Below are positions 41,968-49,921 of a DNA stretch of 64,000 nucleotides, in pieces. Source of the stretch: Candidatus Curtissbacteria bacterium RIFCSPLOWO2_02_41_11 (lineage in GTDB: Bacteria > Patescibacteriota > Microgenomatia > Curtissbacterales > GWA2-41-24); NCBI GenBank assembly GCA_001775055.1, contig MFBU01000007.1, positions 1,683 to 65,682 on the forward strand, in the 5' to 3' direction. A model generated the notes under the pieces. The model saw only the letters and a program-made list of their open reading frames with translations. It made no database searches and had not been told where the DNA came from. Both the position numbers and the translations under genes were made by a program. Within the stretch, counting starts at the first letter, position 1. Every line of letters starts with the position of its first letter.

Positions 41968-42252
41968 TCACTTTGTGATTACAGCCATTAGATCCTCAAA
42001 TTTGATTAACAAAAGTTCCTTGCCTTCTACCTTAATTTCGTTACCGCCCCATTTTTTATAAACGACTTTATCGCCGACTTTGACAGGACATTTGATTGTT
42101 TTACCCTCTTCAATTAAATCCTCACCGCAGGCCAAGACCTTTCCTTCTTGAGGTTTTTCTTCGGCAGACTCGGGAAGAACAATTCCTGAAGCGGTTTTGG
42201 TTTCTTTGGGAGCAGGTTCGATCAAAACGTATCCGGCGAGTGGTTTTAACAT
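41968..42252 (-). CDS. groES: co-chaperonin GroES
   Basis: 94 aa; 'LKPLAGYVLIE...GIVLPE...GKVLACG' GroES pattern. Confidence 0.9.
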   Translation of the reverse strand: MLKPLAGYVLIEPAPKETKTASGIVLPESAEEKPQEGKVLACGEDLIEEGKTIKCPVKVGDKVVYKKWGGNEIKVEGKELLLIKFEDLMAVITK

Positions 42253-42309
42253 TTTTGTCTAAGGTCTAACGACTAAGGACTAAAGCTTTAGACATTGGTC
42301 TTTAGTCGC

Positions 42310-42388
42310 TTGCGATTTTTGTGTAAAAATCGCGAGCACTTTCTGTCCGCGACTGCTAATATTTTAACAATGATTTTTAATTTGTCAA
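42310..42388 (-). promoter_or_regulatory. groES promoter (TTGACA-16-TAAAAT) followed by degenerate CIRCE-like element and an 11-bp inverted repeat
   Basis: minus strand: 'ttgacaaattaaaaatcattgttaaaat' then 'ttagcagtc-N9-aagtgctcg' then 'tcgcgattttt-acac-aaaaatcgcaa'. Confidence 0.45.
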
Positions 42389-42485
42389 GCCCCGAACTTT
42401 TTAGTTCTGGGCGCAGACCCCGTAGAATCGCACTTTGAGCCGTATATGGATAATATTGGAAAGGCGAGAAGTAAGATTAGTCGGG

Positions 42486-44126
42486 TCAAGAGGGTAAATG
42501 GAAGGTTTTAACTTTGCTGACTTCCTGCATGAAGGCAAGATATAAAGGGTGGGGGCGAAGGGGACGGGATTTGAGTTCCGGATGAAACTGGACGCCGACG
42601 AAAAATGGGTGATTTTTAAGCTCTATGGCTTCAACTAATTTGCCGTTTTTGGTGGTGGCAGCAATAGTCATGCCTTTTTCTTGGAAAATCTTGCGATAAT
42701 CGTTATTGAATTCATAACGATGACGGTGGCGCTCGGAACCGGCAGTGGTTCCATAGGCACGAGCTAGAAGCGTACCTCGTTTAGCCTTAAAATCCCAGGC
42801 GCCGAGTCTCATGGTTCCCCCCAGCTCTTTCTTGGCGACTCTTTCTTTTTGCGACTCCATCACATGAATTATGGGATGTTTGGTGTCAGGATTAATCTCA
42901 GTAGTATGGGCATCGCGGTATGCACAAACATGTCTGGCAAATTCAACGGCGCAAAGTTGCATGCCAAAACAAAGCCCAAAATAGGGAATTTTATTTTCGC
43001 GTGCATATTTAATTGCCGAAATAATCCCCTCAACTGCCCGGCCACCGAAACCGCCGGGAACAATGATGCCACTAAAACCCTTAAGAATTTTTACCCCTTC
43101 TTTTTCAATCTGGGTTGAATCTATCCAAGTCATTTTAGGTTTAATGTTGCAAAATGCGGCAGCATGCTTAATCGACTCGATCACCGAAAGATAGGCATCA
43201 GATAAAGTAAAATCGCCGGTTGCAAAATATTTGCCGACCATGGCGATTTTAGCTTTCCCCTTTGCGGTTAACGCCCGATTGACCATCACTTTCCAGTCGG
43301 CAAGGTTACTTTTTCGAGGTTTGACAAATAATTTTTGGAGAATTTTGGTTGAGAGATTTTGGTTTTCGAAGTTAAGGGGAATCTGATAGATATTTTCAAC
43401 ATCCGGGGCAGAGATAATATCCTCTGGATTAAGACCGCAGGCAATGGCAATTTTTTCTTTTCTTTTATCATCAACGGCGACGCTTGACCTTGCTAAGACA
43501 AAATCGGCGATAATGCCGGAGGAGGCCAGCTGTTGGATAGACATTTGGGCCGGTTTGGACTTCATTTCGCCAATTGAAGTTGGGATTGGTAGGTAAGTTA
43601 AGTGGATATGTAAAACATCCCGTGGCCGCTCAAGTTTTAAGAGGCGGTTGGCTTCTAAAAAGAGCAGGTTTTGGAACTCACCGACAGTACCACCAACTTC
43701 AAAAAGAACGATTTCGGCACGGTTCTTTTTGGCACAGTCAATGATTCTTTTGATGATTTCGCGGGGCGGATCCTGGAAAAATTCGACGGTTTTGCCTTCA
43801 TAGCCTAAGGCTCGTTCGCGGTCAATAATTGATTTGAAAACCTGACCGGTGGTCGTATAGTTGGTAGCGTTGAGATTTTGATCTAAGAAGCGTTCGTAAT
43901 TACCCAAATCCTGATCGCATTCCATACCGTCATCCAAAACAAAAACCTCACCATGTTCGATTGGGTTAAGGGTGCCGGCATCAACGTTTAAATAGGGATC
44001 AGCTTTAATGGCGGTGACTGTGAACCCGCGGGATTTTAAGATTAAGGCGATAGATGAGGTGGCCACGCCTTTGCCGATACCGGAAATAACACCGCCTGAG
44101 ACAAAGATAAATTTGGTTCTTAACAT
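42486..44126 (-). CDS. pyrG: CTP synthase
   Basis: 546 aa; 'FVSGGVISGIGKG', glutaminase 'GLCFGMQ', 'RHRYEFN'. Confidence 0.9.
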   Translation of the reverse strand: MLRTKFIFVSGGVISGIGKGVATSSIALILKSRGFTVTAIKADPYLNVDAGTLNPIEHGEVFVLDDGMECDQDLGNYERFLDQNLNATNYTTTGQVFKSIIDRERALGYEGKTVEFFQDPPREIIKRIIDCAKKNRAEIVLFEVGGTVGEFQNLLFLEANRLLKLERPRDVLHIHLTYLPIPTSIGEMKSKPAQMSIQQLASSGIIADFVLARSSVAVDDKRKEKIAIACGLNPEDIISAPDVENIYQIPLNFENQNLSTKILQKLFVKPRKSNLADWKVMVNRALTAKGKAKIAMVGKYFATGDFTLSDAYLSVIESIKHAAAFCNIKPKMTWIDSTQIEKEGVKILKGFSGIIVPGGFGGRAVEGIISAIKYARENKIPYFGLCFGMQLCAVEFARHVCAYRDAHTTEINPDTKHPIIHVMESQKERVAKKELGGTMRLGAWDFKAKRGTLLARAYGTTAGSERHRHRYEFNNDYRKIFQEKGMTIAATTKNGKLVEAIELKNHPFFVGVQFHPELKSRPLRPHPLYLAFMQEVSKVKTFHLPS

Positions 44127-44139
44127 TAAAAAATCCCTC

Positions 44140-44225
44140 CTTCGCCAAGGCTACGGAGGGTAAACCCCCTTCGCCACAACTATTGGAGGGCTCGCTCTCC
44201 GAAGCTTTATGCGAAGGAGAGCCCG
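44140..44225. repeat. pyrG-leader hairpin repeats ('ccctcc...ggaggg', 'gctctccgaagctttatgcgaaggagagc')
   Basis: 18-mer 'gaagctttatgcgaagga' identical to 7737-7754. Confidence 0.55.
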
Positions 44226-44361
44226 CCAATATTCTCTCAAAGCCAAGTTTGGCTTGTCAACCCCGAACAAAGTTTGGTCGTAAAGTTTTTTTCCTTAAAT
44301 ATCGTTGTTGAGATTAGATTCGGAGTTAGACGACTGTTTGATTACTATACTTTGTACGGGG

Positions 44362-44802
44362 TCAAGAAGCTTGTTGTTGAGATAATTCTGCGCTCAGTTG
44401 ATTGATTGCCTTAACGTATCCTAATGCCTTATCAAGACGCAATCTAAAACTGTGGCCATGGTCTCGAATTTCACCACTGTAAGTTTCCTCGCCATTTCTA
44501 ACTTTTCTCTTAACGCGTAGCCACTCGTCTAATCCTTCAACGCGCATCCAGACTGAGCGAGCTTTTCGCAAATTAGCTCCTGCCATTAATGAAACTCTAA
44601 CAGGAGGTTCTTGTGAATTAACGTTATAGGTTAAAACTCGATAAATTACGAAGGGATTATAAGAGGGAATCCACTGGATTTTCCCTTTATCTTTCAAAAG
44701 CCGAATGGCACTATTAAATATTACCTCACAGCCAAAACCAATCTGCCCTCTTTCTTGTAGATTTTGTCTTCCTATTTCTATAAGGGATTCAGGATATGCC
44801 AT
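44362..44802 (-). CDS. hypothetical protein (possible partner of upstream nucleotidyltransferase module)
   Basis: 146 aa; basic; 'EIRDHGHSF' only weakly HEPN-like. Confidence 0.25.
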   Translation of the reverse strand: MAYPESLIEIGRQNLQERGQIGFGCEVIFNSAIRLLKDKGKIQWIPSYNPFVIYRVLTYNVNSQEPPVRVSLMAGANLRKARSVWMRVEGLDEWLRVKRKVRNGEETYSGEIRDHGHSFRLRLDKALGYVKAINQLSAELSQQQAS

Positions 44803-44857
44803 TTGGCTGAATTATACTATGAGATGCTAGAATGTCAAGTTTAGCTTCTTAATCCTC

Positions 44858-44940
44858 TTTTGATACTCCCCCATCACCCACTCCTGAGTATCTTGCGGGT
44901 GGAACAAGAGTTGGTGGTCCCCTATTTTTTCGGGTGGTGA
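44858..44940 (-). pseudogene. orphan duplicated 3'-end fragment of the nucleotidyltransferase gene (45677-46564)
   Basis: ~85 nt ~80% identical to 45728-45812; translates to 'EKIGDHQLLFHPQDTQEWVMGEYQKR' vs 'EKIGKHQLFFHPQNTGEWVMEEYQKR'. Confidence 0.5.
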
Positions 44941-45396
44941 TTATTGAGGTCTTAACAACTGTATTGGCAATTGTTTAAAGCTTTTCAATCGGCGATCGCT
45001 GGTTACAAACACGTCAGCTCGTGCCTGAAGGGCCGTTGCCAGTTGAATGGAATCAGCTAGGGAAAATTGATATTTGCGCCTTATGTCTGCTGTCGTTATT
45101 GCAATGTTGTTATCAACAGGAACAATGACAAGAAAAGAAATTGCCAGAAATTCTTCTTGGAGGTGACTTCTTAGGACAGGTGCTTTGTTGGTAGCAAGTA
45201 ATTCTGCCAAGGTAATGGCACTGGTCACTACAGTCGTTCGCTCAAGGGAAAACTTGCGGAATAACTCTCTGACTATTGGTCCAAAGCGAGGATGTTTTTG
45301 GAAAAAGTAAATGAAGATATTGGTATCTATGGCAACTGTATGGAAGCTATTTACTAAAGCTCTTTTCAAATTTCTGGAGTTTTTCTTCCCACTCAT
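44941..45396 (-). CDS. vapC: PIN-domain toxin VapC
   Basis: 151 aa; 'VAIDTNIFIYFF', 'TSAITLAEL', 'FVTSDRRL' PIN acidic residues. Confidence 0.75.
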   Translation of the reverse strand: MSGKKNSRNLKRALVNSFHTVAIDTNIFIYFFQKHPRFGPIVRELFRKFSLERTTVVTSAITLAELLATNKAPVLRSHLQEEFLAISFLVIVPVDNNIAITTADIRRKYQFSLADSIQLATALQARADVFVTSDRRLKSFKQLPIQLLRPQ

Positions 45397-45622
45397 TTCT
45401 CATTTTTTTCACTTCGCGAATTGGATCAATGCCTTTCCAAGCCTCAGTCATCATGCCATAAAGCCGATCTACCCATGCCGTGGGATCTGTTTTGATCGTA
45501 ACAGTATCTTCATTTATAGAACTGATAGTAACCTTACTACCCGGAGAAATCCCTTTGATCTTTTTTCTAACTTCTTTGGGGATAACTACTTGATATTTAG
45601 TACCGACTGTTACTTGTTGCAT
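45347..45622 (-). CDS. vapB: AbrB/MazE/SpoVT-type antitoxin VapB
   Basis: 91 aa; swapped-hairpin motif 'GTKYQVVIPKEVRKKIKGISPGSKV'; overlaps vapC by 50 bp. Confidence 0.7.
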   Translation of the reverse strand: MQQVTVGTKYQVVIPKEVRKKIKGISPGSKVTISSINEDTVTIKTDPTAWVDRLYGMMTEAWKGIDPIREVKKMRNEWEEKLQKFEKSFSK

Positions 45623-45629
45623 AGTATCA

Positions 45630-45680
45630 CCAAGTCAGACTTGGTATGACAATACTACCAATTTTTGTCATACCTGTCAA
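45630..45680 (-). promoter_or_regulatory. vapBC promoter (TTGACA-17-TAGTAT) with 10-bp inverted repeat GGTATGACAA/TTGTCATACC and 'ccaagtcagacttgg' palindrome
   Basis: seen in sequence directly upstream of vapB ATG. Confidence 0.5.
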
Positions 45681-46564
45681 TTAGGAATAACTGCATTATT
45701 TTTTAGTTTAAGCTTAATCAGCCGCTTTTGATACTCCTCCATCACCCACTCTCCAGTATTTTGCGGGTGGAAGAAAAGTTGGTGTTTGCCGATTTTTTCA
45801 GTGGTGATTTTGGGGTGCATATACCAGAGTTGAAAGTTTTTGAGAAAACTTTCAACAGTTCGTAGTAAGTAGTTAGTAGTTGGTAGTTTCTTTTTCTCTG
45901 ATCTATGATCTACAACCCCAAAATTAACTTGCCAATTCGGAAGGAATTTATATATCCATTTATTAGCATCGATAAATCGTCGGTAAGTCTTGTCCCGATC
46001 CCAAATTGGTTTCATTTGACAAATTTCGTGGGCAAGATAGAGATTTTGGGGACTGATTTTAAGGTCTGATTCGTCGATAAGGACATTAAGGCAAGCTCGA
46101 TCTGCAACTTTTTGACCCTTGACATCTCTTTTAAACGGCACGAGCAAAATGTTTGCCACAAAACGGGTTGTCCAGAGAGTATTTTGGGAGGTTATTAAAA
46201 CCAAATCAATATCATCATTTTTGTGACTGTTTTGCATGGCCAAAGCACCTGATATCGCCATCAACTTTAAAGTCGGAATGATTTTCAGAACTTTAGCAAA
46301 AAAAAGGGCTTTTTTGAATTTGAACTTTGAATATTTTTGCCTTTGCTTGCGCAGGCTGACGATTTGTATTCGACCCTTGAGAAAATAATATTGGCCTTTT
46401 TGGCCAATTTTTGATGACTTCGTCAAAATCAATAATTCTTTGGCGACTGCATCGAGTTTGCTCCTCTTCCCTATTAAATATTGATGGACTTCTTGAACAG
46501 TCAGTGGATAATCGAAAATGTCATGGTAGGCGAAAGTGGCTAGGATTGACTGCGACAAGGTCAT
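45677..46564 (-). CDS. Pol-beta-superfamily nucleotidyltransferase (GS-x10-DxD motif), function unknown
   Basis: 295 aa; 'ISGALAMQNSHKNDDIDLVLI' (G[SA]...DhD) and downstream 'LNVLIDESD'; carries family-C repeat in-frame (45857-45895). Confidence 0.5.
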   Translation of the reverse strand: MTLSQSILATFAYHDIFDYPLTVQEVHQYLIGKRSKLDAVAKELLILTKSSKIGQKGQYYFLKGRIQIVSLRKQRQKYSKFKFKKALFFAKVLKIIPTLKLMAISGALAMQNSHKNDDIDLVLITSQNTLWTTRFVANILLVPFKRDVKGQKVADRACLNVLIDESDLKISPQNLYLAHEICQMKPIWDRDKTYRRFIDANKWIYKFLPNWQVNFGVVDHRSEKKKLPTTNYLLRTVESFLKNFQLWYMHPKITTEKIGKHQLFFHPQNTGEWVMEEYQKRLIKLKLKNNAVIPN

Positions 46565-46577
46565 GCAAGTGCCAATA

Positions 46578-46636
46578 ATATCAGCAGGTCGCCTTGGCTA
46601 CAAGCCAATGGCGCTCCTCTGATATATCATAATCAC
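46578..46636. repeat. family-A MITE-like repeat, copy 4
   Basis: 'atatcagcaggtcgcc ttggctacaagccaa ggcgctcctctgatat'. Confidence 0.75.
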
Positions 46637-46685
46637 TGTGTGATTAGATATAAACCAGAAACTGGAAACTGTAAACTGGTAGTGC

Positions 46686-48008
46686 CTAATTGGCGCCAAA
46701 GCGCGCCAAAATTTGGGCTACATTTTTGGCTGTGGTCTCGAGGGCTGACTTAGCAGGAGCTCCATTAACAACACTGTTCACAGCATCCTCGTAAGCCTTA
46801 ATGATTTGGTCATTAAGCCCATTATCAAAAGTGCGTGAGGCCATCGGGAAAGAACGCATATAAGGAGCATCCTTAATATAGGCCCCAACAATCGGATCTG
46901 ATACTAGTTGTGCTGCCAAAGGAACCTTAGGATATGGTTCACCAAAGAATCGCCCGGGTGTCCTGGAGGCTTCACTATAAAGCTTAACCAGATTTTCGTC
47001 CTCCTGCATAAATTTAATAAACTCCCAAGCCTCTTTCTTATGAGCACTTTTGGCTGAAACGCCCTCTGCCCAATAACTTGCCCAGGTTACTTGACTACCT
47101 TCAAGTTGTGGAACCGGAGCAACTTGAAAGTTTAAAAGAGGATTAACTTGCTTAATCTCCATCGCCCGCCAGCTCGGGGCAAAATACATCGCCAGATTTC
47201 CTCCGGCAAAGGCGATAGTTGATGGCGGCATTGTTTCATCCCAAACATGGTCTGGGCCCTTGGCAAAATTAGCAAAGTATTCCAAAGCATCTGCCGACTG
47301 TTTATCAGTCGGTGATTTTAAATCTCCGCCGTTTTGCAAAATCATCAAAGCCAAAATATCTGAAAAGTGATCTACATTTGAGGCGCTACCCAAAGCAACT
47401 CCTGCGGTTCTGATATTGCCGGCCGTGTCGCGAACTGTAAGTTGAGCAGCTGTCTGGGCAAGCTCGGTCCACGTTGCAGGAGGTCTACCAATCCCGGCAG
47501 CTTTAAAAATATCCTCGTTCCAGAATAAACCAAGACCGTCAATTTCTAAGGGCACGCCGACAAATTTATTCTCACTATTTCTTAAATCAAAAAATACTGT
47601 CGGATAAAAGTTTTTCTTAAAATCAGACGTCGAAACAAGATCCGACGGCACAACATCAAGTTCGTTCTTCAAAACCGGCGTCCAAGTATTATGGAAACGG
47701 AAAAGATCAGGGCCTTTTCCTGCCTCAATCTGATTTTGCAGGCTTTCCCGATATTGCTGGGGACTCTTCTTCTCATAGACAATATTGACATTAGGCTTAA
47801 GTTTTTTGTAGTCATTAACTACCTGATTAATAGTATCGGCGTTTTCCCAAAGACCCCAATATTTAAGGGTAACAGCTTCCGGTTCTTTTCCGCCCGGAAG
47901 CAGTGAACAACCCGCCAAAATTATACCGATGACTGCAAGCGATACCGTTAAAAGAATTCTCTTTCTTAATAATTGGAAATTATTCACTAACGGAGTTAAT
48001 TTAGGCAT
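46686..48008 (-). CDS. ABC transporter substrate-binding lipoprotein (family 1, sugar-type), orphan
   Basis: 440 aa; lipobox 'LAGCS'; MalE-like fold pattern; no adjacent permease genes. Confidence 0.65.
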   Translation of the reverse strand: MPKLTPLVNNFQLLRKRILLTVSLAVIGIILAGCSLLPGGKEPEAVTLKYWGLWENADTINQVVNDYKKLKPNVNIVYEKKSPQQYRESLQNQIEAGKGPDLFRFHNTWTPVLKNELDVVPSDLVSTSDFKKNFYPTVFFDLRNSENKFVGVPLEIDGLGLFWNEDIFKAAGIGRPPATWTELAQTAAQLTVRDTAGNIRTAGVALGSASNVDHFSDILALMILQNGGDLKSPTDKQSADALEYFANFAKGPDHVWDETMPPSTIAFAGGNLAMYFAPSWRAMEIKQVNPLLNFQVAPVPQLEGSQVTWASYWAEGVSAKSAHKKEAWEFIKFMQEDENLVKLYSEASRTPGRFFGEPYPKVPLAAQLVSDPIVGAYIKDAPYMRSFPMASRTFDNGLNDQIIKAYEDAVNSVVNGAPAKSALETTAKNVAQILARFGAN

Positions 48009-48043
48009 TTTTAAGATTCATCTCTATGATATCATAATAAAGC

Positions 48044-49921
48044 TTGATTCGAATAAACCTCAAATCCCTGATGATAAAGTCTAAATTCAACTTTAAAAAA
48101 AGTTCTTTTTCGTTAACTTTTATTTTTATTTTACTGCTATTTTATTTCGGCTACACCTTAGTCTACCTCAATAAAACGCCGCCCAATACCTATTTTGCAA
48201 ATCAGCCTTTTCCTGCTACGACTCAAGACCAATTAATTGAAAAAATCAGCCAGAAAATAGATTCATTTGAAAATTCTAAAATTATTTTTGAAGTTAACGA
48301 TCAAAAAATTGAGGCAGACCCAAAAACATTGGGAATTAACTTCGACAAGGCTAAAACTATCGATAATATTTGGCTTAAGACAAAATCCGCAAATTTTAAA
48401 GACGAGCAAATGCGAAAAATTAAATCCTTATTTATTAAAACTTATATTGCTCCAAATTACCAAGTTGATTTTTCAAAACAATCAAGCAGTTTGGATTCCT
48501 TATTTGGCAAATATGAGACTAAGGCCAAAGATGCGACCATCAACTTTAAATTAGGAAAAATTGAAGTTAACGATGAGGCTGTAGGTAAAGTAGTCGACAA
48601 GGGTGATTTGTATTTGGCCCTTAAAGATCGCTTAGATAATTTATCAACTCAGCCAATCAATGTTGCTCTAATAGAAGATGCCCCAAAAATTCGCACTTCC
48701 GGCGCAAAACAAGCGCAAGATAAAGTCGAAACCCTTAATAACCAAAGAATTGTCCTTACATTTGGCAGTGACGCTTGGAAACTTTCAGGCAACTCGCTAC
48801 TTTCAATTTTAAAATTTCATCCATATGGGCTTGAAGATGCCTACATTATAGAGTTTAAATTCGGCCAAAATCCGCTCATCATCACCTGGATAAAGCTTGC
48901 CGACTCACAAGAACCCAAACTTAATGTCAGCTTAGATAATGAAAAACTCAATGATTTAATTGACGAAATTGCCAGTTCCATCGAACAAAATACAGTAAAT
49001 GCTACTCTTAGATTCGAAAACGGCAAGGTTACTGAATTTACACCTGCTCGTGACGGCCAAAAACTTGATAAGACACAAACTAAAAAATTAATTGCAGACA
49101 AAGTTTCCATTGATAGTGTTAGTGGAGAAAAGGATATTAACATTGCCCTTCCAGTAGTGGTCACTAAGGCAAAAATAGCCAATGAAGAAATCAATAATCT
49201 GGGGATAAAAGAACTTTTAGGCAGGGGTGTTTCTTATTTTGCAGGCTCAATTGCAAATAGAATTTATAATATTTCTCTAGGTTCTCAAAGAATAAATGGC
49301 ACATTAGTTAAACCACAAGAAACATTTTCCTTTAACGGGACAGTTGGCGAAGTTAGTAGTGCCACCGGTTATAGGCAGGCATACGTTATTTCTTCTGGCA
49401 GAACTGTCCTTGATGACGGCGGCGGAATTTGTCAGGTTTCAACAACTGTTTTTAGGGCGGCTCTAAATGCCGGCCTGCCGATTGTAAAGCGCACAGCCCA
49501 TGCCTATCGCGTCGCCTATTACGAGCAACGTGGGTTTAAACCCGGACTGGATGCTACCGTTTGGGCACCGGCGGTTGATCTTGTATTTAAAAATGACACT
49601 ACAAACCATATCTTAGTGCAGGCAATTTTCGATGCAGCCAGTTCCAAGCTTGAAGTTGATATCTACGGAACAAGTGACGGCAGACAAGTTAAACTAACAG
49701 ATCCGATTATTTCCAATGTTAAACCACCGCCACCTGATAAATATCAGGAAGACCCAACTTTACCAAAAGGCACAACCAAACAGGTTGATTTTGCTGCCTG
49801 GGGAGCAACATCCGTATTCACCAGAAAAGTCTTTAAGAATGACCAATTGATAATTGATGATACCTTCAAATCTTATTTTAAGCCTTGGCAAGCAGTATAC
49901 TTAGTGGGGACAGGTGGCTGA
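48044..49921 (+). CDS. VanW-domain protein with C-terminal G5 domain
   Basis: 625 aa; VanW region 'QETFSFNGTVGEVSSATGYRQAYVI...GGGICQVSTTVFRAALNAGLPIV'; G5-like C-terminus. Confidence 0.7.
   Translation: MIRINLKSLMIKSKFNFKKSSFSLTFIFILLLFYFGYTLVYLNKTPPNTYFANQPFPATTQDQLIEKISQKIDSFENSKIIFEVNDQKIEADPKTLGINFDKAKTIDNIWLKTKSANFKDEQMRKIKSLFIKTYIAPNYQVDFSKQSSSLDSLFGKYETKAKDATINFKLGKIEVNDEAVGKVVDKGDLYLALKDRLDNLSTQPINVALIEDAPKIRTSGAKQAQDKVETLNNQRIVLTFGSDAWKLSGNSLLSILKFHPYGLEDAYIIEFKFGQNPLIITWIKLADSQEPKLNVSLDNEKLNDLIDEIASSIEQNTVNATLRFENGKVTEFTPARDGQKLDKTQTKKLIADKVSIDSVSGEKDINIALPVVVTKAKIANEEINNLGIKELLGRGVSYFAGSIANRIYNISLGSQRINGTLVKPQETFSFNGTVGEVSSATGYRQAYVISSGRTVLDDGGGICQVSTTVFRAALNAGLPIVKRTAHAYRVAYYEQRGFKPGLDATVWAPAVDLVFKNDTTNHILVQAIFDAASSKLEVDIYGTSDGRQVKLTDPIISNVKPPPPDKYQEDPTLPKGTTKQVDFAAWGATSVFTRKVFKNDQLIIDDTFKSYFKPWQAVYLVGTGG

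What the first reader, a model, noticed from the sequence alone, without database searches (positions are those of the whole stretch)
44858..46564. vapBC module inserted at the 3' end of a nucleotidyltransferase gene, with an ~85-bp duplicated gene tail
The last ~85 nt of the nucleotidyltransferase gene (45728-45812) recur at 44858-44940, immediately downstream of vapC, at roughly 80% identity. That second copy is an orphan C-terminal fragment with no gene body.

This is the footprint expected if the vapB-vapC cassette (44941-45622, with its own TTGACA/TAGTAT promoter and operator palindromes) was inserted, or a tandem paralogue was replaced, between a duplicated segment.

The nucleotidyltransferase itself has a G[SA]-x10-DID ... 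D Pol-beta signature reminiscent of MNT or CD-NTase-type enzymes, and is followed by a 146-aa basic protein. Together these might form a defence or TA-like island.
Basis: seen in the sequence. Interest (0 to 1): 0.6.

Follow-up and report, generated by a model that had tools for sequence, protein, structure and literature searches.

The report
Displaced gene tail beside vapBC cassette
A toxin-antitoxin pair (vapBC) sits in a frequently rearranged slot between two conserved genes of a Curtissbacteria (candidate-phyla-radiation) genome, and the orphan gene tail next to it is most likely a leftover of recombination between different versions of that slot; it still carries the promoter of the next gene, and the whole thing is an ordinary kind of genome scar.

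Summary
About 112 nt of the 3' end of the 295-aa gene (45705-45816) recur at 44838-44950, directly after the vapC stop, at about 82% identity (E about 3e-22).

Between the copies lies a bona fide AbrB/MazE-PIN vapBC module. It has its own promoter and a perfect 10-bp inverted repeat.

Relatives with an 85%-identical NTase lack vapBC, so this is an insertion polymorphism.
- **NTase.** It is a syntenic gene (SBP-NTase-pyrG-groESL) conserved across Curtissbacteria and other Microgenomates. Its fold is a winged helix plus an MNT/ANT-like minimal nucleotidyltransferase. It is not a defence gene.
- **146-aa protein.** It is an optional, fast-evolving ORFan with no HEPN features. It is not a partner of the NTase.
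- **The NTase|pyrG slot.** It is a hotspot holding different cassettes, including four kinds of toxin-antitoxin-like pairs. At least five lineages carry orphan NTase tails. All run to the gene end but start at different positions.

One relative has NTase-vapBC-pyrG with the same left junction and no orphan. The best explanation is therefore recombination between two slot variants with one illegitimate joint ("C-terminal displacement", homology-facilitated illegitimate recombination). A duplicative insertion is less likely.

The orphan retains the consensus promoter that drives the 146-aa gene. Interest is modest.

The parts
45677..46564 (-). 295-aa conserved Microgenomates protein: N-terminal winged helix, minimal (MNT/ANT-like) nucleotidyltransferase core with GS-x10-DDxD, and a conserved C-terminal tail (invariant QLFFHP)
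   Evidence: More than 800 homologues, all unnamed or 'hypothetical', mostly Curtissbacteria. No Pfam, NCBIfam, PADLOC or PHROG hit. AF2 pLDDT 81.9. Foldseek best hits are MntA antitoxins, ANT(4'), AAD(9) and HalB at E 1e-3 to 1e-1. Synteny SBP-NTase-pyrG.
45705..45816 (-). Tail copy B: the functional 3' end of the NTase gene, attached to the gene body
   Evidence: 83% identical to the tail of the empty-site relative L061/L001.
45652..45680 (-). vapB promoter TTGACA-17-TAGTAT (TG-extended -10). The NTase TGA stop lies inside AATTGACA. The same junction is present in L064.
45643..45674 (.). Perfect 10-bp inverted repeat GGTATGACAA / TTGTCATACC spanning the -10 region: likely VapB operator
   Evidence: Conserved in L064. 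The operator function is inferred.
45347..45622 (-). vapB antitoxin (AbrB/SpoVT/MazE-type), 91 aa
   Evidence: PF04014 E 6e-9 and TIGR01439 E 7e-12.
44941..45396 (-). vapC toxin (PIN domain), 151 aa (possibly 142 aa from a later start). Overlaps vapB. The acidic residues D24, E65, D115 and D133 are present.
   Evidence: PF01850 E 2.6e-18. Nearest relatives are 99% and 87% identical, then 50% or less. The acidic residues were read from the translation.
44838..44950 (-). Tail copy A: orphan (displaced) NTase 3' end. It starts at the vapC stop and corresponds to positions about 21-125 of the 126-nt tail model.
   Evidence: Colinear with the NTase-tail-to-small-gene junction of the empty-site loci L015/L016.
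44811..44838 (-). Consensus sigma-70-type promoter TTGACA-16-TATAAT (12/12) at the 3' end of orphan A, 8 nt before the ATG of the 146-aa gene. In empty-site relatives the same promoter is embedded in the intact NTase coding end.
   Evidence: -35 and -10 invariant across all aligned loci.
44362..44802 (-). 146-aa basic (pI 9.75) ORFan of a small, fast-evolving family. An optional occupant of the slot, not a partner of the NTase.
44127..44260 (-). pyrG promoter (TTGACA-18-GAGAAT) and structured leader with a terminator-like hairpin: the conserved right-hand border of the variable slot
   Evidence: Conserved in L060, L064 and L042.

Best explanation
**The slot.** The region between the stop of a conserved NTase-fold gene and the pyrG promoter is a recombination hotspot in Curtissbacteria. 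It is filled with different small accessory cassettes.

**The event.** The window's arrangement (NTase - vapBC - orphan NTase tail - 146-aa gene - pyrG) is a recombinant of two pre-existing versions of this slot:
- P1 = NTase-vapBC-pyrG.
- P2 = NTase-small protein-pyrG.

One crossover was homologous, in a conserved flank. The other was illegitimate. It joined the base after the vapC stop to a point about 105 nt before the end of the other parent's NTase gene. This is homology-facilitated illegitimate recombination, also called 'C-terminal displacement'.

**The outcome.**
- The intact NTase keeps the tail that came with vapBC (copy B).
- The other parent's tail survives as a non-coding stub (copy A).
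- The last about 30 nt of the stub are the TTGACA-16-TATAAT promoter of the 146-aa gene, so that gene is still expressed.
- The two copies are thus homeologous sequences from two lineages. They are not the product of a duplication made at insertion.
- vapBC itself is an ordinary autoregulated type II toxin-antitoxin module: a PIN RNase toxin, and an AbrB-type antitoxin binding the palindrome over its promoter.

**Shown:** the anatomy, the empty sites, the P1-like and P2-like configurations, the recurrence of orphan tails, and the promoter sequences.

**Inferred:** the direction and mechanism of the joint, promoter and operator function, and toxin activity.
For: - **Empty-site relatives exist.** L001-L006 have NTase 85% aa identical and flanks about 87% nt identical. 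L015-L017 are also empty sites. In these the NTase end runs straight into the small gene, and the promoter is embedded in the NTase coding end.
- **A P1-like configuration exists.**
  - L064/L068 have NTase-vapB-vapC-pyrG with the same AATTGACAGGTATGACAAAAATTGGTA.. junction and no orphan.
  - VapB is 66%, VapC 50% and NTase 63% identical to the window's. The NTase-vapBC block is therefore old and co-diverging.
- **Orphan tails recur in independent lineages**:
  - L060: vapBC, then orphan, then a GNAT gene.
  - L026/L083: a DUF5678 + aspartyl-protease pair, then orphan.
  - L042/L096: a 65-nt spacer, then orphan.
  - L020: a different upstream gene, then a decayed orphan, then a 146-like gene.
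  - All run to the gene's 3' end, but they start at tail-model positions 21, 42-46, 49, 51 and 61.
- **Origin and decay of the orphans.**
  - The L042 orphan is 72% identical to another lineage's tail but 56% to its own genome's tail (rank 37 of 45).
  - L096 and L020 orphans are frameshifted, so orphans decay like pseudogenes.
- **Phylogenetic incongruence.**
  - The window's NTase is closest to L001 (85% aa).
  - Its 146-aa protein is 29% identical to L001's, 64-78% to those of L015/L020, and the genes are about 90% nt identical with L020.
- **The slot is hypervariable.** The gap runs from 89 to 1751 nt. Its contents include CsrA-like genes, Phd+PIN_3, PIN+RHH, DUF5678+Asp protease, AbrB+PIN, GNAT and ORFans.
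- **No alternative machinery or paralogue.** There is no integrase within 5 kb either side (Pfam column). No tandem NTase paralogue occurs in 135 loci.
- **A published precedent.** The same logic has been proposed for T6SS and Rhs orphan arrays (PMC5361080).
Against: - For the window itself the two copies cannot be assigned to different lineages with confidence. Copy A is 79-82% identical to copy B and 82% to the best foreign tail (L079), over only about 104 nt. An in-situ duplication followed by drift of A fits the divergence equally well.
- Both flanks of the window (the SBP-NTase side and the pyrG side) are L001-like at about 87%. The composite may therefore have been imported or assembled in an earlier ancestor, and the actual parents are not sampled.
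- In two cases the illegitimate joint sits exactly at the stop codon of the last cassette gene, and within 16 nt of it in a third. That is tidier than random joints would give, unless selection for compactness explains it.
- The proposed AAT microhomology at the joint rests on assuming the P1 parent had TAA+TTTT after vapC, as L064 and L060 do.
Confidence: 0.58

Rival explanations
1. **In-situ duplicative insertion.** The 0.76-kb vapBC cassette was inserted about 105 nt before the end of the NTase gene, and the insertion process itself duplicated those about 107 nt. Possible routes are fill-in of a long staggered break, or template switching during repair. Copy A then drifted as a pseudogene while B stayed under selection.
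For: - The copies directly flank the cassette as direct repeats.
- In a three-way comparison read by eye from the alignment, A has many more private changes (about 13) than B (about 2), as expected for a relaxed copy.
- A's identity to B (79-82%) is about as high as to any other tail.
Against: - No known transposition or insertion mechanism makes target duplications of about 100 bp (own knowledge), and the insert has no transposase or terminal repeats.
- L064 shows vapBC at the same left junction without any duplication.
- L042's orphan is clearly foreign to its resident tail.
- The 3' part of A and the 146-aa gene have different phylogenetic affinity from the NTase body.
Confidence: 0.2
2. 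**Integration of a small circular element carrying its own surrogate NTase tail.** This would be either Campbell-type single crossover by RecA, or site-specific recombination in trans, as phage e14 does at icd. Integration regenerates an intact NTase and displaces the native tail. Under this reading the tail acts as a portable attachment or homology site for toxin-antitoxin cassettes.
For: - The layout (gene body - substitute tail - insert - displaced native tail) is exactly that of e14 in icd, with its 163-bp pseudo-icd' (PMC6379469).
- Different cassettes recur at the same gene end.
- The cassette ends tightly at the repeat.
Against: - There is no integrase in the 0.76-kb insert or within 5 kb.
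- The start of the orphan differs among events (tail-model positions 21 to 61). It differs even between the two vapBC lineages, window vs L060. A fixed core, or a circle with an internal junction, would not give that.
- The longest identical run between A and B is 13 nt, which is poor substrate for RecA.
- The repeat has no attC-like palindrome; its only inverted repeat is 7 nt.
Confidence: 0.12
3. **Remnant of a tandem NTase paralogue.** Under this reading the body of a second NTase gene was replaced by vapBC.
For: Only the presence of a second C-terminal fragment.
Against: - None of 135 related loci has two NTase bodies.
- The orphan is colinear with the tail-to-small-gene junction of single-copy relatives.
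Confidence: 0.03

Closest known systems
VapBC type II toxin-antitoxin modules (PIN toxin with AbrB/SpoVT-type antitoxin)
   Same: - Gene order antitoxin then toxin, with overlapping ORFs.
- Pfam PIN and MazE/AbrB domains, with four acidic PIN residues.
- Own promoter with a palindromic operator.
- Patchy distribution among close relatives.
   Different: Nothing unusual in the module itself. Its nearest relatives below 87% identity are only about 50% identical. No activity was tested.
C-terminal displacement / orphan arrays at Rhs, CDI and T6SS effector-immunity loci, attributed to homology-facilitated illegitimate recombination (Kirchberger et al. 2017, PMC5361080; Jackson et al. 2009, cited there)
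   Same: - A conserved upstream gene serves as the homology anchor.
- The new 3' end plus cargo is inserted, and the old 3' end plus its downstream gene is shifted downstream as an orphan.
- Events are repeated and independent, with variable joints.
- The loci are polymorphic among co-occurring relatives.
   Different: - The anchor gene here is not a polymorphic toxin. Both tails encode the same conserved sequence.
- The cargo is toxin-antitoxin pairs and ORFans.
- The host is a candidate-phyla-radiation bacterium.
- The orphan is kept partly because it carries a promoter.
Prophage e14 / phage 21 integration in the 3' end of icd, leaving pseudo-icd' (PMC6379469)
   Same: An intact gene is regenerated by an element-borne substitute 3' end. 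The native 3' end is left as a diverged orphan on the far side of the insert.
   Different: No integrase, no element-sized insert, and no constant crossover point across events.
MNT (minimal nucleotidyltransferase) antitoxins of HEPN-MNT modules, and ANT/KNTase enzymes
   Same: Pol-beta-type NTase core with GS...DxD. These are the best structural matches (7bxo, 7ae9, 6m6u, 6un8).
   Different: - 295 aa, with an added winged helix and a conserved C-terminal extension.
- No HEPN neighbour.
- Conserved chromosomal synteny.
- Sequence profiles do not match any Pfam or PDB family.

Membership tests
VapBC type II toxin-antitoxin | Toxin with a PIN domain and conserved acidic catalytic residues | tested here: met
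   PF01850 E 2.6e-18, above the gathering score. D24, E65, D115 and D133 were read from the translation.
VapBC type II toxin-antitoxin | Small DNA-binding antitoxin gene immediately upstream, overlapping or abutting the toxin gene | tested here: met
   The 91-aa AbrB/MazE-type protein matches PF04014 at E 6e-9 and TIGR01439 at E 7e-12. The ORFs overlap at 45347-45396.
VapBC type II toxin-antitoxin | Autoregulated promoter with a palindromic operator | tested here: met
   Sequence level only. There is a 10/12 promoter match and a perfect 10-bp inverted repeat over the -10 region. Binding was not tested.
VapBC type II toxin-antitoxin | Toxin RNase activity neutralised by the antitoxin | not testable with these tools
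   Needs expression and rescue assays.
   Foldseek hits to MntA (7bxo, 6m6u, 7ae9) at probability 0.99-1.0 but weak E values of 1e-3 to 1e-2. The motif ISGALAMxNSxxxDDIDL is invariant.
   - No Pfam hit in 26 family members.
- No HEPN chain in the PDB profile search.
- The low-confidence model is alpha-beta-alpha.
- No arginine or histidine is among the invariant columns.
- Most genomes have the NTase without this neighbour.
CD-NTase / CBASS or other catalogued defence system | Match to defence-system profiles and an associated effector gene | tested here: not met
   PADLOC gives no hit for the NTase or the 146-aa protein. Neighbours are an ABC substrate-binding protein and pyrG.
Integron-type gene cassette | attC-like imperfect palindrome bounding the cassette, and an integron integrase nearby | tested here: not met
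   The only inverted repeat in the repeat unit is 7 nt. No integrase lies within 5 kb.
Integrative element with surrogate gene end (e14/icd type) | Diverged duplicate of the target gene's 3' end flanking the insert | tested here: met
Integrative element with surrogate gene end (e14/icd type) | Element-encoded integrase and a constant crossover core | tested here: not met
   There is no recombinase in the insert. Orphan starts vary from tail-model position 21 to 61 among events.
C-terminal displacement by homology-facilitated illegitimate recombination | Orphan 3' fragment that runs to the gene end, lies downstream of the newly placed DNA, and has a variable upstream break | tested here: met
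   Six orphan types. Four run to tail-model positions 123-125 and two (L042, L096) to 109-118. Starts lie at 21-61.
C-terminal displacement by homology-facilitated illegitimate recombination | Both parental configurations exist in related genomes | tested here: met
   P1-like: L064/L068. P2-like: L001-6, L015-17 and L062.
C-terminal displacement by homology-facilitated illegitimate recombination | Resident and orphan tails derive from different lineages | tested here: inconclusive
   Clear for L042 (72% to a foreign tail vs 56% to its own). Unresolved for the window (82% vs 79% over 104 nt).
C-terminal displacement by homology-facilitated illegitimate recombination | Short microhomology at the illegitimate joint | tested here: inconclusive
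   A possible AAT overlap (CAATAAT|CACCACC) can be inferred from the L064 and L060 sequences after vapC. The true parents are not sampled.

The most novel reading that the evidence does not exclude
The conserved 3' end of this NTase gene, with a promoter at or overlapping its end (embedded in the coding sequence in small-protein lineages), might act as a natural 'landing pad' in Curtissbacteria. Under this reading, toxin-antitoxin and other small cassettes are repeatedly captured and exchanged between co-occurring lineages because each cassette travels with a copy of the tail. The tail would serve both as a homology arm and as a promoter donor. That would make this a recombinase-independent, integron-like cassette site in ultra-small candidate-phyla-radiation genomes.
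Probability: 0.2. Interest if true: 0.55.

Novelty: new member of a known kind. Interest (0 to 1): 0.3.

Why it matters
This gives a worked example of how accessory genes, mostly toxin-antitoxin pairs, enter the very compact genomes of candidate-phyla-radiation bacteria. They arrive at the end of a conserved gene, by recombination between co-occurring lineages. They leave displaced gene tails that can be misread as duplications or pseudogenes.

It also shows that a promoter embedded in a coding end can be preserved as a stub when the gene is displaced.

For annotation, it flags two things:
- a widespread, unnamed wHTH-NTase family of Microgenomates;
- a hypervariable slot next to pyrG that could serve as a strain marker.

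None of this changes current concepts.

Tried and rejected
- **Sequence-profile identification of the NTase.** Pfam, NCBIfam, PADLOC, PHROGs and a PDB profile search gave nothing. Only fold comparison placed it.
- **HEPN test of the 146-aa protein.**
  - There is no family hit, and PDB hits are marginal.
  - The AF2 model has only three sequences in its alignment and is poor (pLDDT 58). Its fold search is uninformative.
- **Rfam** on 42000-48500 gave only sub-threshold chance hits.
- **Rooting A, B and L001 tails with other lineages.** The tail is too short and too conserved to resolve whether A is sister to B.
- **Apparent vapB disruption in L007.** It is only a scaffold gap of Ns.
- **A pyrG-tail orphan beside the hicAB insertion in relatives.** There is only a stub of about 20 nt and no duplication.
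- **attC-like structure in the repeat.** Absent.
- **Tandem paralogue.** Absent.
- **The L060 lineage upstream of vapB.** It could not be extended, because the contig is 1.4 kb and the protein look-up is restricted.
Full report
**1. What is in the window**

All relevant genes are on the minus strand:
- ABC substrate-binding protein, 46686-48008.
- A 295-aa protein, 45677-46564.
- A 91-aa AbrB/MazE-type antitoxin, 45347-45622.
- A 151-aa PIN protein, 44941-45396.
- A 146-aa protein, 44362-44802.
- CTP synthase pyrG, 42486-44126.

Pfam and NCBIfam confirm the vapB and vapC assignments: PF04014 at 6e-9, TIGR01439 at 7e-12, and PF01850 at 2.6e-18.

**2. The repeat is real**

- Window 44840-44931 matches 45708-45799 at 82% over 92 ungapped nt.
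- With one 1-nt indel the match extends to 44838-44950 vs 45705-45816 (81.6%, E about 3e-22).
- A 26-nt core pattern occurs only at these two places, and never in 100 shuffles.
- Copy B is part of the NTase coding sequence. The ORF continues about 28 nt beyond the repeat and stops at a TGA that lies inside the -35 box of the vapB promoter.
- Copy A begins at the vapC stop codon and has no gene body. It still reads as 33 open codons, EKIGDHQLLFHPQDTQEWVMGEYQKRIKKLNLTF*.
- The arrangement is 99.4-100% identical in seven other loci from independent assemblies, including GCA_001774895.1 and GCA_000996905.1. One of them, L012, carries an extra 109-bp deletion. It is not an assembly artefact.

**3. 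Promoters**

- A perfect TTGACA-16-TATAAT sits at 44838->44811. That is the last about 30 nt of orphan A, 8 nt before the ATG of the 146-aa gene.
- vapB has TTGACA-17-TAGTAT at 45680->45652.
- pyrG has TTGACA-18-GAGAAT at 44260->44231.
- The vapB promoter is overlapped by a perfect 10-bp inverted repeat, GGTATGACAA/TTGTCATACC. This is the expected kind of antitoxin operator; the function is inferred.

**4. Empty sites**

- The NTase has more than 800 homologues, nearly all unnamed and largely from Candidatus Curtissbacteria.
- Loci with an 85%-identical NTase (L001-L006) show SBP - NTase - 150/152-aa protein - pyrG with no vapBC. The NTase stop abuts or overlaps the small gene's start.
- The window aligns to them at 87.6% up to 45727, and again at 86.6% from 44267 onwards. 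Between these, only copy A plus the first codons of the small gene align, at 71%.
- In these relatives the TTGACA...TATAAT promoter of the small gene lies inside the NTase coding end.
- Orphan A is colinear with that ancestral tail-to-small-gene junction. In indel pattern it is closest to the L015/L016 type, whose small protein is 64% identical to the window's 146-aa protein.

**5. The NTase is a conserved core-like gene, and the 146-aa protein is optional**

- A scan of one genome per species found the NTase in 39 genomes, nearly all titled as Curtissbacteria, other Microgenomates (Gottesman-, Levy-, Davies- and Shapirobacteria) or unclassified Patescibacteria. A few MAG titles name other phyla.
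- In most Curtissbacteria the NTase is followed directly by pyrG.
- The distance from the NTase end to the pyrG start ranges from 89 to 1751 nt.
- The slot holds different things in different lineages:
  - nothing;
  - CsrA-like proteins;
  - Phd/YefM + PIN_3;
  - PIN + an 87-aa protein, on the opposite strand;
  - DUF5678 + an aspartyl-protease-like protein;
  - AbrB + PIN;
  - a GNAT acetyltransferase;
  - several ORFans.
- No locus of 135 has two NTase bodies.
- The NTase has no Pfam, NCBIfam, PADLOC, PHROG or PDB-profile match.
  - Its AF2 model has pLDDT 81.9.
  - The model shows an N-terminal winged helix, a minimal nucleotidyltransferase core and a helical C-terminal part.
  - The best Foldseek hits are MntA antitoxins, ANT(4'), AAD(9) and HalB, at probability about 1 but E only 1e-3 to 1e-1.
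  - The motif SGALAMxNS...DDIDL and the tail motif QLFFHP are invariant.
- The 146-aa protein has pI 9.75.
  - It belongs to a small family, with 48 representatives at 50% clustering in 1.84 billion proteins.
  - None of 26 members has a Pfam hit, and the PDB profile search finds no HEPN chain.
  - Its model is low-confidence and alpha-beta-alpha.
The slot as a whole, however, is rich in toxin-antitoxin modules.

**6. Orphan tails recur**

I searched all fetched loci with a tail peptide and with protein and DNA HMMs of the tail. Second, body-less tails turned up in several independent lineages:

| Lineage | Arrangement | Tail-model positions |
|---|---|---|
| Window type | vapBC, then orphan | 21-125 |
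| L060 | vapBC (VapC 87% identical), orphan, GNAT, pyrG | 49-125 |
| L026/L083 | DUF5678 + Asp-protease pair, then orphan | 51-125 |
| L042 and L096 | hairpin-containing spacer of about 65 nt, then orphan | 42/46-109/118 |
| L020 | a different upstream gene end, decayed orphan, 146-like gene | 61-123 |

- Four of the orphan types run essentially to the gene's 3' end and two (L042, L096) to positions 109-118. Their upstream breaks differ.
- L096 and L020 orphans carry frameshifts, so orphans decay as pseudogenes.
- The L042 orphan is 72% identical to the functional tail of another lineage (L035) but only 56% to the resident tail. That ranks the resident tail 37th of 45. There, the two tails clearly come from different lineages.

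**7. A vapBC configuration without an orphan**

- L064/L068 carry SBP - NTase - vapB - vapC - pyrG.
- The NTase stop lies in the same AATTGACAGGTATGACAAAAATTGGTA(A/G)TATTGT.. junction as in the window.
- The vapC stop is followed directly by the pyrG promoter, and there is no orphan.
- VapB is 66%, VapC 50% and NTase 63% identical to the window's.
- NTase-vapBC is therefore an old, co-diverging block. The presence of vapBC next to the NTase does not require a duplication.

**8. Interpretation**

The simplest account is recombination between two versions of the slot. P1 is NTase-vapBC-pyrG. P2 is NTase-small protein-pyrG.
- One crossover was homologous, in a conserved flank.
- One joint was illegitimate, between the base after the vapC stop and position about 21 of the other parent's tail.
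- This is homology-facilitated illegitimate recombination. It gives the 'C-terminal displacement' layout described for Rhs, CDI and T6SS effector-immunity loci (PMC5361080).
- It explains several observations:
  - the variable orphan starts;
  - their extension to the gene end;
  - the divergence of the copies;
  - the foreign affinity of the L042 orphan;
  - the discordance between the NTase and the small gene. The NTase is 85% identical to L001's, while the small protein is 29% identical to L001's. The small gene is about 90% nt identical to L020's.
- A possible 3-nt microhomology (AAT) at the joint is inference only.
- The orphan is probably retained because its end is the promoter of the 146-aa gene.

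**9. What remains open**

- For the window alone, copy A is about as close to copy B (79-82%) as to the best foreign tail (82%), over about 104 nt.
  - An in-situ duplication followed by drift of A cannot be excluded. I give it about 0.2.
- An e14/icd-like or Campbell-type integration of a cassette carrying a surrogate tail has the right layout (PMC6379469).
  - It lacks an integrase and a constant crossover point.
  - It also lacks adequate identical stretches; the longest is 13 nt.
  - I give it about 0.12.
- The tight placement of joints at cassette stop codons is not fully explained.

**10. Verdict**

- The insertion polymorphism is confirmed.
- The 'duplication by insertion' and 'defence island' readings are weakened.
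- The object is an ordinary VapBC module in a recombination hotspot, with a displaced gene tail that doubles as a promoter stub.
- Interest is modest (0.3). It is a new member of known kinds.

Noticed in passing
window 44127-44260 (-): pyrG is preceded by a promoter, a transcript start region GGCGGGC, and a long hairpin (-45 kcal/mol, z -2.9). The hairpin ends in CCCTCC...GGAGGG plus a U-run immediately before the ATG. The layout is conserved in L042, L060 and L064. It resembles the Bacillus pyrG attenuator (own knowledge). There is no Rfam match.
   Followed up: partly
L012 (GCA_000996905.1, LCBC01000008.1), equivalent to window 45676-45784: This otherwise 100%-identical assembly lacks 109 bp. 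The missing stretch covers most of tail B, the NTase stop and the vapB -35 box, giving a 275-aa NTase without the invariant QLFFHP motif. It may be a real deletion variant or an assembly error.
   Followed up: partly
L002-L004 and L013, downstream of pyrG (e.g. L002 9230-10436): A hicAB-like block (93 aa + HicA + 154 aa) is present or absent between pyrG and groES among close relatives. It is absent in the window. In L002 the last pyrG codons are replaced, and about 20 nt of the old pyrG end sit downstream of the insert. This is a second example of insertion into a gene's 3' end.
   Followed up: partly
L042 4838-4915 and L096 4372-4440: A spacer of about 65 nt lies between the NTase tail and the orphan tail. 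It is shared by two lineages and contains a hairpin with compensatory changes (GTCGAG/CTCGAC vs CTCTGC/GCAGAG). Fold z-scores are about -2. Its function is unknown, and it is not found in the other 138 loci.
   Followed up: partly
window 44838-44943 (-): The open reading frame of orphan A is in the same frame as vapC and starts right after its TAA stop. Readthrough would add 33 residues. This is probably coincidence (one chance in three).
   Followed up: no
L020 1-210: A 146-like gene about 90% nt identical to the window's is preceded by a decayed, frameshifted NTase tail fragment and by the end of a different, unidentified gene (...LKWKPLEP*). The small gene with its promoter stub therefore occurs behind different cassettes.
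   Followed up: partly
L060 81-536 vs window 44941-45396: The vapC of L060 is nearly identical to the window's over its first three quarters. It switches to an L064-like sequence over the last about 25 codons, which suggests recombination within the toxin gene itself.
   Followed up: no
window 45677-46564; protein residues 253-265: The invariant QLFFHP motif of the NTase family lies in a segment that AlphaFold models with pLDDT below 50, between two confident helices. This is a conserved but unmodelled loop that may be a functional or interaction site.
   Followed up: no
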